Part shown: positions 1 to 46,734 of the stretch, in pieces
Layout of the letters: each line of letters begins with the position of its first letter
Position numbering within the stretch: the first letter of the stretch is position 1
Assembly (NCBI GenBank): GCA_963666565.1
Contig: OY762911.1
Coordinates: 2,464,001-2,528,000, forward strand
Length of the DNA: 64,000 nt
Reading direction: 5' to 3'
Origin: Thermoanaerobaculia bacterium
GTDB taxonomy: Bacteria > Acidobacteriota > Thermoanaerobaculia > Multivoradales > Multivoraceae
Made by a program: the position numbers and the translations under genes
Notes under the pieces: generated by a model
Database searches by the model: none
Told to the model about the DNA's origin: nothing
Seen by the model: the letters and a program-made list of their open reading frames with translations, nothing else

Positions 1-86
1 GGTAATGGGATGGTCCGCCCCGCCCTCTACGGCCTCTTGTAGGGCCAGAATGGGTTTTTCCCAACCAACAAGGGAGGAGACGGACC

Positions 87-1145
87 ATGAAGAAGGTTAC
101 TCGAGTCGGTATCGATCTGGGCAAGCGCCTGTTCCAGGTGTGCGCGATGGACTCGTCGGGCGCGGTGGTGTTTCAGCGTCAGGTGAAGGCGTCGGGGCTG
201 ATGGAGTTGATGGTGCAGCTCGAGCCGTGCCTGGTGGGCATGGAGGCGAGCTGCGGCGCGCACTACTGGGTGGAGAAGCTGAGCGCTCTGGGTCACGACG
301 CGCGGATGATGAGTCCTCAGTTCGTGCGGCCTTACGTGAAGTCGAACAAGAGCGACTACCACGACGCGGAGGCGATCTGCGAGGCGGTGTCCCGTCCGAC
401 GATGCGTTTCGTGCCGTACAAGACGAAGGAGCAGCGTGCTCTTCAGCAGGTTCATCGGAGCCGGGAGGCGGCGCTTCGCCGTCGCACGCAGTTGGTGAAC
501 CAGTTGCGGGGATTCCTGGGCGAGTACGGGATCGTGCTGCGTCAGGGCCGGGCGGTGGTCATGCGGGCGGTGCCCGACATCGCGAGCGACGCGGAGCGCG
601 AGCTGCCGGGTCAGTTTCGCGCGCTGCTGTGGATGCAGTACGAGGCTCTGATGCAGGTCCACAAGGAGGTCGAGGACCTGACCGCGATGCTGGTGCGGGA
701 GTCGAAGGAGAACCCTCACTGCCAGCGTCTGATGTCGATTCCGGGCATCGGTCCGATCGTGGCGACGGCGATCGTGGCGGCGGTGGGCAACGGCTGGGCT
801 TTCAGCAGCGGTCGTCAGATGTCGGCCTGGATGGGCTTGGTGCCGCGTCAGGACTCGACCGGGGGTCGCACGGTGCTGCGCGGGATCAGCAAGCGCGGCG
901 ACCGTTACCTGCGCTCGCTCCTGATCCACGGTGCGCGGGCGGTCCTGCGCACGGCGGCGAAGGGCGAGCGAACGCGGCTGAAGGGCTGGGCGCTCGACGT
1001 CAAGCGGCGCCGGGGGCCGAACGTCGCCACGGTGGCACTGGCCAACAAGCTGGGCCGCATCGCCTGGGCGGTGCTTCGCCGCGGCGAGCTGTACCGCGAC
1101 GACCGCCTCGCCGGGTCTCGGCAGAAGGTCTCTCGGGCCGCGTAG
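87..1145 (+). CDS. IS110-family DEDD transposase/recombinase
   Basis: GIDLGK, GMEASC and KSDYHDAEAI (DEDD RuvC-like domain); SIPGIGPI and STGG in the C-terminal domain; GGAGGAG RBS upstream. Confidence 0.96.
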   Translation: MKKVTRVGIDLGKRLFQVCAMDSSGAVVFQRQVKASGLMELMVQLEPCLVGMEASCGAHYWVEKLSALGHDARMMSPQFVRPYVKSNKSDYHDAEAICEAVSRPTMRFVPYKTKEQRALQQVHRSREAALRRRTQLVNQLRGFLGEYGIVLRQGRAVVMRAVPDIASDAERELPGQFRALLWMQYEALMQVHKEVEDLTAMLVRESKENPHCQRLMSIPGIGPIVATAIVAAVGNGWAFSSGRQMSAWMGLVPRQDSTGGRTVLRGISKRGDRYLRSLLIHGARAVLRTAAKGERTRLKGWALDVKRRRGPNVATVALANKLGRIAWAVLRRGELYRDDRLAGSRQKVSRAA

Positions 1146-1425
1146 CAGGCGGCTCGATCCACATCGAATCAACCAAGGAGGATTGCCCCACCAAGTCGTT
1201 GCGAGGACACAACGGAGCGATGGCGAAACAGGTCGGACCGGCGCGTCGAGAGCCTGAACCCGCGCAGGGCCATTCAACAGGCCGTCTGGGTGTACAGAAG
1301 AGACGACGCGCGCGTATTCCATCGGGGCCAGGGAGCTCGAAACCACGAGACGCCCAACAACAGGCCGAATACATGCAAGCAACGACACCTCTCTCGCCGG
1401 AACTCCGGAAAGTGCCCTTGCACAA
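1146..1425 (+). ncRNA. Putative bridge RNA / seekRNA region of the IS1111-type element
   Basis: Non-coding region downstream of the transposase. Stem GCGCGTCG (1241-1248)/CGACGCGC (1304-1311) encloses ACCCGCGCA (1258-1266, reverse complement of the target right flank), a GGCC hairpin, and CTGGGTG (1286-1292, target top strand). Transcript ends are unknown. Confidence 0.75.
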
Positions 1426-1442
1426 GCGGGGCGGACCATACA
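1418..1442 (+). promoter_or_regulatory. -35 half of the IS circle-junction promoter
   Basis: TTGCAC at 1418-1423, a 17-nt spacer, then CA (1441-1442) joined to left-end TAAT (3-6) gives CATAAT only after circularisation. Confidence 0.75.
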
Positions 1443-1579
1443 TGCGCGGGTCTTCTGACCCGCATTCCGCCGAAAGCGGCCGACAGCATCGTCGCCGGCC
1501 TGCGGCCGGCGGCCCTGTTGTCCGGGCTCGCCGCTTCGCGGCGTCGCCCGCGAGCGGGTCGGAAGACCCGCGCACCCAG
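1443..1579. repeat. REPIN-like element: two inverted REP-like palindromes around a hairpin-rich spacer; the left REP is the IS target
   Basis: TGCGCGGGTCTTCTGACCCGC ... GCGGGTCGGAAGACCCGCGCACCCAG; the spacer is homologous, in reverse complement, to 9121-9212. Confidence 0.85.
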
Positions 1580-9096: not shown

Positions 9097-9261
9097 GGGT
9101 GCGCGGGTCTTCCGACCCGCTCTCCGGGCGAAGCCGCGAAGCGGCGCAGCCCGGACAACGAGGTCGCCGGCCAAAGGCCGGCGACGATGCTGGCGGCCGC
9201 CTGCGGCGGCAAGCGGGTCGGAAGACCCGCGCACCCAGTGGGTCAGAAGACCCGCGCACCC
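9097..9261. repeat. REPIN-like element with three REP copies between convergent genes
   Basis: Forward REP 9097-9120, reverse REPs 9213-9236 and 9240-9261; spacer homologous to 1464-1553. Confidence 0.87.
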
Positions 9262-24390: not shown

Positions 24391-24416
24391 CTGGGTGCGC
24401 GGGTCTTCCGACCCGC
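24391..24416 (+). repeat. REP-like palindrome between convergent genes
   Basis: CTGGGTGCGCGGGTCTTCCGACCCGC. Confidence 0.85.
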
Positions 24417-46534: not shown

Positions 46535-46734
46535 CTGGGTGCGCGGGTCTGACATCCGACCGCCCGAGGACGGGCGCTCGGACTGTGACCCGGCTGGCGC
46601 GGGCACGCGCCAGCCGGGTTCCGACCCGCTGCCGCCGAGGGCGGCCAGAAGAACGGGCCGGCTGGGTGCGCGGGTCTTCTGACCCGCTGCCGCCGCAGGC
46701 GGCCAGAGAAACGGGCCGGCCGAAGGCCGGCGCC
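46535..46734 (+). repeat. Tandem REP-1 cluster; the first copy carries the 69-nt insert
   Basis: REP at 46535 with insert 46550-46618; plain REP at 46662-46687 plus trailing hairpins. Confidence 0.87.

What the first reader, a model, noticed from the sequence alone, without database searches (positions are those of the whole stretch)
1..1463. IS1111-type element whose bridge/seekRNA guides can be read directly and are programmed against the host REP repeat
Seen: removing 3-1442 restores GG|TGCGCGGGTCTTCTGACCCGC, the REP found many times in this window. In the non-coding region, the 8-bp stem 1241-1248/1304-1311 encloses ACCCGCGCA (1258-1266), the exact reverse complement of the target flank TGCGCGGGT (1443-1451). 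It then has a GGCC-N8-GGCC hairpin and CTGGGTG (1286-1292), identical to the REP top strand across the insertion point. Established: IS110/IS1111 recombinases use bridge/seekRNA loops that pair with both target strands, and some IS110 members target REPs. Inference: a natural RNA-guided recombinase specific for CTGGGTGCGCGGGT. Empty sites exist at 1566-1579 (rev), 9225-9238 (rev), 24391, 46535 and 46662.
Basis: partly seen in the sequence, partly recalled or inferred. Interest (0 to 1): 0.8.

Follow-up and report, generated by a model that had tools for sequence, protein, structure and literature searches.

The report
REP-targeting IS1111 element with readable seekRNA
This is an intact jumping gene of the known IS1111 type whose own small guide RNA region spells out the host repeat sequence it inserts into; it is a clear example but an ordinary member of a mechanism published in 2024.

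Summary
Window 3-1442 is a 1440-bp IS1111-family insertion sequence. It has a 352-aa DEDD/Transposase_20 transposase (87-1145), 14-bp sub-terminal inverted repeats, the canonical 7-bp left and 3-bp right extensions, and a 297-nt 3' non-coding region.

The genome holds 5 identical copies, all inserted at [C/A]TGGG|TGCGCGGGTC. The empty 14-mer occurs 526 times, against 0.3 expected. It belongs to a REP family that has a RAYT-like gene.

An 8-bp stem (1241-1248/1304-1311) encloses ACCCGCGCA, complementary to the top strand, 5' of CTGGGTG, complementary to the bottom strand. This is the order published for IS1111 seekRNAs.

Relatives in sister genomes give a natural test. Among 42 distinct insertions in 7 genomes, one lineage carries guide GTCGGCGCA. 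It sits in TGCGCCGAC or TGCGCCGGC, the REP variant of a host that has no copy of the window's target. All three guide differences are compensatory.

The enclosing stem covaries with a clade at about 40% protein identity.

RNA expression and activity were not tested. ISPa11, a published IS1111 member, already targets Pseudomonas REPs through a seekRNA, so this is a new member of a known kind.

The parts
1..2 (+). Last two bases (GG) of the left half of the interrupted target CTGGG. The rest lies upstream of the window.
   Evidence: Genome flank ...CCCCCTGGG|.
3..1442 (+). Complete IS1111-family insertion sequence, 1440 bp. A shared T makes 4-1443 formally possible too.
   Evidence: Five identical copies in the genome. 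The boundaries come from comparison with 526 empty sites and give the canonical 7/3 extensions.
3..9 (+). 7-bp left terminal extension, TAATGGG.
   Evidence: Read; same ends in 35 related loci. The 7-bp left / 3-bp right rule is from the PMC11187229 introduction.
10..23 (+). Left sub-terminal inverted repeat, ATGGTCCGCCCCGC.
87..1145 (+). Transposase gene, 352 aa. It has a DEDD RuvC-like N-terminal domain (candidate D10, E53, D90, D93). The C-terminal domain carries GLVPRQDSTG (250-259), with T258 as the putative nucleophile.
   Evidence: ORF. Pfam PF01548 at 4.1e-20 and PF02371 at 7.6e-24. Motif positions. T258 aligns with the S of ESG in the ISCro4 transposase chain 9t56.
1146..1442 (+). 297-nt 3' non-coding region that holds the predicted seekRNA/bridge RNA.
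   Evidence: Covariance model R1 hits 1230-1383 and the same place in the four other copies, and nowhere else in the genome.
1241..1248 (+). 5' arm of the 8-bp stem that closes the target-guide loop.
   Evidence: Present in the MFE and centroid folds. On alignment A2, 4 of 8 pairs change on both sides, 96.9% of cells are paired, and slid controls give 29-50%.
1258..1266 (+). Guide T (ACCCGCGCA), complementary to the top strand of the right target flank TGCGCGGGT.
   Evidence: It covaries with the flank in relatives.
1268..1283 (+). GGCC-N8-GGCC hairpin between the two guides.
   Evidence: Conserved in relatives. 4 of 8 distant-clade elements have GGCU/AGCC instead, a compensatory change (sequences printed).
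1286..1292 (+). Guide B (CTGGGTG), identical to the top strand across the insertion point (CTGGG|TG), so complementary to the bottom strand.
   Evidence: 41 of 42 insertions match 7/7 and 1 matches 6/7.
1304..1311 (+). 3' arm of the 8-bp stem.
1326..1366 (+). Second module: a GGCC...GGCC-closed hairpin with a variable loop.
   Evidence: RNAalifold consensus. The GGCC/GGCC pairs are invariant in 16 of 16 sequences, so there is no covariation evidence.
1369..1376 (+). ATACATGC, identical to the last 5 nt of the right end plus the first 3 nt of the right flank. Candidate donor (right-end) guide with a short extension into the flank. Inferred.
   Evidence: Matching segments sit at the same scaffold place in other clades: L046 ATACA|CGTC, L067 AGAT|ACGAG, L075 AGAT|ACGACTG.
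1426..1439 (+). Right sub-terminal inverted repeat, GCGGGGCGGACCAT.
1440..1442 (+). 3-bp right terminal extension, ACA.
1443..1463 (+). Right half of the interrupted REP: TGCGCGGGT, then the hairpin GCGGGTC-TTCT-GACCCGC.
1566..1579 (-). Empty target site, CTGGGTGCGCGGGT.
9225..9238 (-). Empty target site.
24391..24404 (+). Empty target site.
46535..46548 (+). Empty target site. No REP hairpin follows it.
46662..46675 (+). Empty target site.

Best explanation
Window 3-1442 is an intact, recently active IS1111-family insertion sequence.

**Proposed mechanism.** The transposase is a DEDD RuvC-like domain joined to a PF02371 domain that carries a Thr-Gly nucleophile motif. It is proposed to work with a seekRNA/bridge RNA made from the 3' non-coding region, core about 1235-1320. 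An 8-bp stem presents two guides.
- ACCCGCGCA pairs with the top strand of TGCGCGGGT.
- CTGGGUG pairs with the bottom strand of CTGGG|TG.

Together the guides specify the 14-nt site CTGGGTGCGCGGGT, which is the conserved 5' part of the host's main REP. The element inserts there in one orientation without duplicating the target, presumably through a circular intermediate.

**Second module.** A conserved module lies downstream (1312-1376). It ends in ATACAUGC, which equals the right end plus the first 3 nt of the flank. It probably serves donor-end recognition.

**Shown here:** the anatomy, the insertion sites, guide-target covariation and stem covariation.

**Inferred from experimentally studied relatives (ISEc11, ISPa11, ISKpn4, IS621):** that the RNA is made, binds the protein and directs recombination.
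For: **Family features**
- Pfam PF01548 and PF02371.
- GL-P----TG motif at residues 250-259.
- 14-bp sub-terminal repeats with 7-bp and 3-bp extensions.
- 297-nt 3' non-coding region against an 84-nt 5' end.
- 40% identity over 95% of the protein to IS4321/IS5075-family transposases.

**Site specificity**
- 5 of 5 identical copies lie at [C/A]TGGG|TGCGCGGGTC. One of them, at genome position 347393, has no REP hairpin after the 15 conserved bases.
- There are 526 empty 14-mers against 0.3 expected.

**Guide order**
- T lies 5' of B and the two overlap in the target, as published for IS1111 seekRNAs (PMC11187229 section 9).

**Covariation over 42 distinct insertions in 7 genomes**
- Guide ACCCGCGCA: 17 of 17 lie in TGCGCGGGT (9 Watson-Crick pairs).
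- Guide GTCGGCGCA: 7 lie in TGCGCCGAC (9 Watson-Crick), 14 in TGCGCCGGC (8 Watson-Crick plus one U-G), and 1 is an outlier.
- The three guide differences (A>G, C>U, C>G) face the three target differences.
- That host has 0 copies of the window's 14-mer. It has 420 of the degenerate form CTGGGTGCGCSGRY, of which 138 are the GAC type.

**Chance**
- 5 of 20000 shuffles reach both matches.

**Structure**
- In the enclosing stem, 4 of 8 pairs change on both sides between clades. 96.9% of cells are paired, against 29-50% when the partner is slid.
- A covariance model of the scaffold finds 17 of 23 further loci at E<=1, 16 of them at E<0.001.
- The same model finds exactly the 5 IS copies in this genome.
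- In the distant clade the same slot holds complements of quite different flanks: L069 9 nt, L071 10 nt.
Against: - No RNA data exist for this organism, so expression, processing and protein binding are untested.
- No circle junction or empty-site polymorphism was seen in the contigs that were laid.
- The non-coding region as a whole does not fold better than shuffles (z -1.54).
- One of 42 insertions (L062) has a right flank that matches only TGC.
- L011's guide mismatches its flank at 1 of 9 positions. The two G065 insertions have 8 Watson-Crick pairs each.
- In the distant clade only 2 of 9 elements (L067-L073, L075, L078) show an exact complement of 9 nt or more.
- The covariation comes from a few lineages of related elements, so there are few independent events.
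- The element that pairs with the left end was not assigned cleanly.
Confidence: 0.88

Rival explanations
1. Dual recognition. The RNA guides select the sequence, but the REP hairpin next to the site is an additional, perhaps required, structural determinant read by the transposase. A 2026 preprint reports this for ISPpu10.
For: - 40 of 42 insertions have a hairpin right after the guide-matched bases (flanks printed).
- The right flank overlaps the 5' arm of the hairpin.
- The ISPpu10 preprint abstract reports a target stem-loop as a second specificity layer (10.64898/2026.03.19.712850; abstract seen).
Against: - Two insertions, L005 in this genome and L027, have no hairpin after TGCGCGGGTC / TGCGCCGGCG.
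- In this genome 45 of 526 empty 14-mers lack the hairpin, and 1 of 5 insertions does. There is no sign of avoidance, but the numbers are tiny.
- The hairpin co-occurs with the 14-mer anyway, so its frequency proves nothing.
Confidence: 0.2
2. The protein alone recognises the REP. The two matching segments in the non-coding region are captured or converted REP fragments with no guiding role.
For: - REPs are very abundant (526 copies).
- GC-rich shuffles reach a 9-nt complement in 102 of 20000 trials.
- No RNA evidence is available.
Against: - The two segments are in opposite orientations, separated by a conserved hairpin and enclosed by a covarying stem. This is not the layout of a REP copy.
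- The same scaffold slots in clades of about 40% identity hold complements of unrelated targets.
- Both matches occur together in only 5 of 20000 shuffles.
- Experimentally validated relatives work through the RNA (PMC11187229, sections 9 and 10).
Confidence: 0.04
3. The copies are immobile relics whose shared target reflects an old burst. The guide match carries no present function.
For: No empty-site or circle joint was seen in the four contig sets laid.
Against: - The five copies are identical over 1440 bp and have an intact reading frame.
- Related genomes hold up to 22 identical copies at different sites.
- The guide is retuned to each host's own REP variant.
Confidence: 0.05

Closest known systems
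ISPa11 (IS1111 family, Pseudomonas aeruginosa)
   Same: An IS1111 member that targets its host's REP. Its 96-nt seekRNA from the 3' non-coding region carries a top-strand match 5' of a bottom-strand match (PMC11187229 introduction and sections 8-9). Durrant et al. also inspected it as one of six predicted bridge RNAs (PMC11208160 legend).
   Different: The phylum differs: relatives' records are titled Thermoanaerobaculia / Candidatus Multivorans. The REP and the guides differ. No direct sequence comparison was made, because no ISPa11 sequence was available in the tools. For the window's element nothing is shown experimentally.
ISEc11 / ISXne4 (IS1111 family)
   Same: Same anatomy. They are the published case of natural retargeting by replacement of the guide segments, with the stems kept (PMC11187229 section 10). 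Here sister lineages differ at 3 of 9 guide positions, matched by 3 target changes.
   Different: ISEc11 uses a short linear target, not a REP. In that pair only 3 of 13 target bases are shared, whereas here the retuning is fine-scale and follows REP variants of sister species.
IS4321 / IS5075 (IS1111 family)
   Same: The closest named transposases found: 40% identity over 95% of the protein. According to the title of Partridge and Hall 2003, as cited, they have sub-terminal inverted repeats.
   Different: [quoted passage not shown]
IS621 and ISCro4 (IS110 group, solved structures 8wt6 and 9t56)
   Same: RNA-guided DEDD recombinases. IS621 also targets REPs. Both use two guides that read opposite strands, plus short handshake extensions (PMC11208158).
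   Different: Only the C-terminal domain aligns (E about 1e-9). In the IS110 group the bridge RNA lies in the left end and the guide order is reversed (PMC11187229 abstract). The nucleophile there is Ser, whereas here the aligned residue is Thr.
ISPpu9 / ISPpu10 (Pseudomonas putida)
   Same: IS110-family elements that occupy REPs. ISPpu9 has an sRNA gene downstream of the transposase gene (abstract in the search listing). ISPpu10 shows a target stem-loop effect (abstract).
   Different: ISPpu9 has extra solo sRNA copies, according to that abstract. Here the model finds the RNA module only inside the 5 IS copies.

Membership tests
IS1111 family (within IS110 superfamily) | N-terminal DEDD (RuvC-like) catalytic domain | tested here: met
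   PF01548 at residues 7-147, E 4.1e-20. Candidate residues D10, E53, D90 and D93 were assigned by reading the motifs GIDLG, GMEAS and SDYHDAE. These assignments are inferred.
IS1111 family (within IS110 superfamily) | C-terminal PF02371 domain with a GL-P----S/TG motif | tested here: met
   PF02371 at E 7.6e-24. GLVPRQDSTG lies at residues 250-259. The motif is as stated in PMC11187229 section 6.
IS1111 family (within IS110 superfamily) | Sub-terminal inverted repeats (usually 11-13 bp; 7-17 bp according to Durrant et al.) | tested here: met
   14-bp perfect repeats at 10-23 and 1426-1439.
IS1111 family (within IS110 superfamily) | Asymmetric terminal extensions: 7 bp left, 3 bp right | tested here: met
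   Comparing filled and empty sites gives TAATGGG and ACA. A shared T leaves a 1-nt ambiguity (6/4).
IS1111 family (within IS110 superfamily) | Long non-coding region downstream of the transposase gene | tested here: met
   297 nt on the 3' side against 84 nt on the 5' side.
IS1111 family (within IS110 superfamily) | Site- and orientation-specific insertion without target duplication | tested here: met
   5 of 5 copies in this genome. Among relatives, 41 of 42 insertions have both flanks as expected.
IS1111 family (within IS110 superfamily) | Transposase related over its full length to IS1111-family transposases | tested here: met
   40% identity over residues 1-336 to IS4321/IS5075-family transposases. 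Only residues 170-336 align to IS621 and ISCro4. No tree was built.
IS1111 family (within IS110 superfamily) | seekRNA region with a top-strand complement 5' of a bottom-strand complement, overlapping in the target | tested here: met
   Guide T at 1258-1266 and guide B at 1286-1292 overlap on TG.
IS1111 family (within IS110 superfamily) | RNA from the non-coding region is made and co-purifies with the transposase | not testable with these tools
   No run on record as RNA holds the stretch.
IS1111 family (within IS110 superfamily) | Circular intermediate | tested here: inconclusive
   No circle joint appears among the joints listed for four contig sets. Contigs drop rare forms, so this says little.
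IS110 group proper (IS621-like bridge RNA in the left end) | Long non-coding left end that encodes the bridge RNA; short or absent sub-terminal repeats | tested here: not met
   The left end is 84 nt and the sub-terminal repeats are 14 bp.
REP (repetitive extragenic palindrome) as the target | Short imperfect palindrome in hundreds of copies, often clustered | tested here: met
   There are 526 copies of the 14-mer, 481 of them with the hairpin, and 1624 hairpins in all. 156 neighbour distances are under 200 bp.
REP (repetitive extragenic palindrome) as the target | Associated RAYT (Y1 transposase) flanked by REPs | tested here: met
   One PF01797 match at 36.3 bits, over the cut-off. Its open frame contains HIH and YIQHNP and runs into an array of REPs, with an inverted REP after it. 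The REPs were seen at and beyond the 3' end of the open frame only.
REP (repetitive extragenic palindrome) as the target | Extragenic location | not tested
   Only seen informally: site 1566-1579 lies just past the 3' end of ORF 1592-2932.

The most novel reading that the evidence does not exclude
The IS lineage and the host REP/RAYT repeat family co-diverge. Each sister species' element has retuned 1-3 guide bases to that host's dominant REP variant. One lineage uses a U that reads both the A and the G sub-variant about equally (7 insertions against 138 empty sites; 14 against at most 282). In addition, the conserved segment at the same scaffold place in three clades (right end plus the first bases of the flank) would mean that natural IS1111 RNAs carry a donor/handshake-type loop. 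The published short-seekRNA model does not require such a loop.
Probability: 0.3. Interest if true: 0.45.

Novelty: new member of a known kind. Interest (0 to 1): 0.3.

Why it matters
It gives a clean natural example of RNA-guided target choice in a phylum where none has been studied. The target is known (14 nt), hundreds of empty sites exist, and sister elements have guides retuned to a different REP variant. This is a ready-made pair for reprogramming tests and for asking how many mismatches or wobbles an IS1111 guide tolerates. It adds no new principle, because ISPa11, ISEc11 and IS621 already established the mechanism and the REP targeting.

Tried and rejected
**Rfam.** The evalue-mode search over 1-1700 returned 9 matches, none reaching a gathering score. 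The best was Pseudomon-groES at 27.4 bits against a cut-off of 50, over the REP region 1408-1510. The whole window at gathering thresholds returned 0 matches. This shows only that no curated family reached threshold.

**RNA evidence.** No RNA holder was listed.

**Contigs laid.** Contigs of X1, X2, X3 and X5 were laid on L001.
- No listed joint skips exactly the IS, and none joins its right end to its left end.
- Summed contig depth over the IS is about 4-7 times that of the flanks. The tool warns that depth is not a copy number.

**Left-end (RDG-like) guide.**
- In the distant clade, TTCATCCT and CATCAT complement the left junction.
- In the window's group two registers are possible: AUUCCAU with left-end positions 3-9 including one U-G, or CCAUC with positions 7-11. 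I could not decide between them, so it is left unassigned.
- TCCCAT, seen in some relatives, is not conserved and was dropped.

**Left-end hairpin.** The left end (30-40) is 7-12 nt complementary to the seekRNA hairpin in relatives. The window's changed seekRNA loop has no matching change in its left end. I therefore do not read it as a pairing.

**GUAUUC/GAAUAC stem (1314-1319 with 1367-1372).** It is perfect in the window, has mismatches in L011 and L013, and RNAalifold did not predict it.

**Promoters.** No sigma-70-like promoter was found in the integrated copy.

**Distant-clade guide test.** Exact complement runs in or near the T slot were 9 nt (L069), 10 nt (L071), 7 nt (L068, L078) and 6 nt (L070). 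L067, L072, L073 and L075 showed none at that place. This is partial support only.

**Rows left out of the 42-insertion table.**
- Loci whose ends did not match my end strings: L034/L063, L035, L036, L040/L064, L052, L065 and L081, which are truncated or decayed.
- L039/L061 has one changed base in the right repeat. Its flanks are the expected TCTGGG| and |TGCGCGGGTC.
- L065 and L052 carry guide GCCGGCGCA but have no usable right flank.

**Not done or not available.**
- No tree of transposases was built.
- I could not check whether ISfinder already names this element.
- The supplements of PMC11187229 and PMC11208160 (target logos, predicted RNAs) were closed and may list relatives.
Full report
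**What is there**

Window 3-1442 is a 1440-bp insertion sequence. It encodes one 352-aa protein at 87-1145. The protein has Pfam DEDD_Tnp_IS110 (E 4.1e-20) and Transposase_20 (E 7.6e-24) domains.

- The ends carry perfect 14-bp sub-terminal inverted repeats at 10-23 and 1426-1439.
- Seven bases (TAATGGG) lie outside the left repeat and three (ACA) outside the right one.
- This 7/3 arrangement is stated for the IS1111 family in the introduction of Siddiquee et al. 2024 (PMC11187229; passage seen).
- The long non-coding region (297 nt) follows the gene, and the 5' end has 84 nt.
- The C-terminal domain holds GLVPRQDSTG (250-259). This is the TG form of the family motif GL-P----S/TG (PMC11187229 section 6).
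- T258 aligns with the Ser of ESG in the ISCro4 transposase chain 9t56.
- The protein is 40% identical over 95% of its length to transposases annotated as the IS4321 and IS5075 family. Only its C-terminal half aligns to IS621 and ISCro4 (E about 1e-9).

**Copies and target**

The genome is one contig of 4.79 Mb. It holds five copies, identical over all 1440 bp.

- All five have TGGG to the left (CTGGG in 4, ATGGG in 1) and TGCGCGGGTC to the right.
- One copy has no REP hairpin after those bases, so the conserved part of the site is the 14-15 nt that the guides cover.
- The sequence upstream of window base 1 is ...CCCCCTGGG.
- The empty 14-mer CTGGGTGCGCGGGT occurs 526 times against 0.3 expected from composition. 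481 of these have the hairpin.
- This is the dominant variant in the genome. A minor CCGGC variant has 51 copies.
- The repeat behaves as a REP. The hairpin occurs 1624 times and the 14-mer sites are often clustered.
- The genome's single Y1-transposase match has HIH and YIQHNP motifs. Its open frame runs into an array of these repeats.

**The guides**

GCGCGTCG (1241-1248) pairs with CGACGCGC (1304-1311). The stem appears in both the MFE and the centroid fold. Inside the loop:

- ACCCGCGCA (1258-1266) is complementary to the top strand of the right flank.
- A GGCC-N8-GGCC hairpin follows.
- CTGGGTG (1286-1292) equals the top strand across the insertion point.
- The two matches overlap on TG.

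Top-strand complement first, bottom-strand complement second, overlapping in the target, is what Siddiquee et al. report for the seekRNAs of ISEc11, ISPa11 and ISKpn4 (section 9).

In 20000 dinucleotide-preserving shuffles, 102 reach the first match, 516 the second and 5 both. The non-coding region as a whole is not unusually stable (z -1.54).

**The natural test**

Relatives at 75-82% protein identity occur in records titled Thermoanaerobaculia bacterium or Candidatus Multivorans. The genome search places several of them in the window's genus: 10 of 31 genomes of that genus that were searched have a match.

I tabulated 42 distinct insertions from 7 genomes with the same ends.

| Guide T | Insertions | Right flank and pairing |
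|---|---|---|
| ACCCGCGCA | 17 of 17 | TGCGCGGGT, 9 Watson-Crick pairs |
| GTCGGCGCA | 22 | 7 in TGCGCCGAC (9 Watson-Crick); 14 in TGCGCCGGC (8 plus a U-G); 1 (L062) matches only TGC |
| GCCCGCGCA | 2 | 8 Watson-Crick pairs each |
| GCCGCCGCA (L011) | 1 | 8 of 9 |

- The GTCGGCGCA elements are one 1443-bp element found in one genome.
- The three guide differences between the first two lineages face the three target differences.
- The host of the second lineage has no copy of the window's 14-mer. It has 420 of the degenerate form, of which 138 are the GAC type.
- The three other hosts with the window's guide have 52, 69 and 166 copies of the window's 14-mer.
- Guide B is invariant and matches 7/7 in 41 of 42 insertions.

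**Structure across clades**

A clade at 37-41% protein identity from other families of the class has different ends and a different target. Its scaffold is visibly the same:

1. GACCG;
2. the 5' arm of the stem;
3. AGCCGA;
4. the guide slot;
5. a GGC(C/U) hairpin;
6. the second guide slot;
7. the 3' arm of the stem;
8. a GGCC-closed hairpin;
9. a segment equal to the right end plus the flank.

On the 16-sequence alignment A2, 4 of the 8 pairs of the enclosing stem change on both sides. 96.9% of cells are paired, against 29-50% with the partner slid. The second GGCC/GGCC stem never varies, so it says nothing.

A covariance model built from A2 finds the module in 17 of 23 loci not used to build it. 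These include loci from Burkholderiales, Comamonadaceae and Gammaproteobacteria records. In the window's genome it finds only the five IS copies.

The clades are few and the sequences related, so these counts represent few independent events.

**Second module**

ATACATGC (1369-1376) equals the last 5 nt of the element plus the first 3 nt of the flank. The segment at the same scaffold place in other clades does the same: L046 ATACA|CGTC, L067 AGAT|ACGAG, L075 AGAT|ACGACTG. In L068-L072 the flank part fits only partly.

By analogy with the donor loop and handshake guides of IS621 (PMC11208158, passages) I read this as a donor-end guide. This is inference. The partner for the left end was not assigned.

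**How it most likely works**

The transposase and an RNA from about 1235-1320 recognise both strands of CTGGG|TGCGCGGGT. The element is excised as a circle and inserted without duplication.

Joining the ends in silico creates TGCACA-N16-CATAAT across the junction in 9 of 11 distinct elements. The integrated copy has no sigma-70-like site. This fits the junction promoters known for the superfamily, a point I recall rather than tested.

None of the RNA or recombination steps is shown here.

**Comparison and novelty**

ISPa11 is an IS1111 member that targets P. aeruginosa REPs. It has a sequenced 96-nt seekRNA with the same guide order. Natural retargeting is published for ISEc11 and ISXne4. Durrant et al. 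predicted bridge RNAs in 93.0% of IS1111 elements, located in the right end (PMC11208160 section 12).

The element is therefore a new member of a known kind. The fine-scale retuning to REP variants of sister species and the U-G dual reading are worth noting but are not new principles.

My literature searches were the two. I did not search for this particular element or host.

Noticed in passing
L086:1018-1932 (G000:C1:748944-749858, + strand): A RAYT-like Y1 transposase open frame (PF01797, 36.3 bits; HIH and YIQHNP motifs). Its 3' end runs into tandem REPs, and an inverted REP follows. Three of the five IS copies (at 725951, 740364 and 804959) lie within about 55 kb of it.
   Followed up: partly
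window 30-47 and 1268-1285: The left end holds a GGCC-N8-GGCC hairpin that is nearly the reverse complement of the seekRNA hairpin plus GT. Exact complementarity is 7 nt here and 9-12 nt in relatives. The window's changed seekRNA loop has no matching change in the left end, so the cause is unexplained. It could be a shared protein-binding motif or an old duplication.
   Followed up: partly
L062 (G029:C1:16513-20565): One of the 22 copies of the sister element has the normal left flank (CACTGGG). Its right flank matches the target only in TGC. This may be a half-match off-target insertion or a later rearrangement. Two more copies lie within 7 kb.
   Followed up: no
window 1419-1442 joined to 3-6: Joining the right and left ends would create TGCACA-N16-CATAAT, with the -10 hexamer spanning the junction. 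This holds in 9 of 11 distinct related elements. The integrated copy has no such promoter-like site.
   Followed up: partly
L067-L075 (other families of the class): A second IS1111 clade has ends GATGA(A/G)(G/A)-TGGACTCCTCC...GAT. It sits in a recurring site, GTCCGCTGCAA(G/T)|A(C/T)GA..GTTAGG, whose identity was not examined.
   Followed up: no
window 1408-1510: A sub-threshold Rfam match to Pseudomon-groES RNA (27.4 bits against a cut-off of 50) covers the IS right end, the REP hairpin and two further hairpins. It is probably hairpin likeness only.
   Followed up: no
G000 genome-wide: REP 14-mers less than 200 bp apart are mostly in the same orientation or converging (++ 73, +- 48, -- 31). 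They rarely diverge (-+ 4).
   Followed up: no
L001:1498-2952 in run X5: A contig from a run labelled marine metagenome carries a variant of the IS with 20 differing letters and one 1-nt gap over 1455 nt.
   Followed up: no
L065:2114-2264 and L052:2467-2565: Decayed or incomplete copies in two further genomes carry guide GCCGGCGCA. This is the exact complement of TGCGCCGGC and one base different from L011's guide. Their right flanks are not usable.
   Followed up: partly
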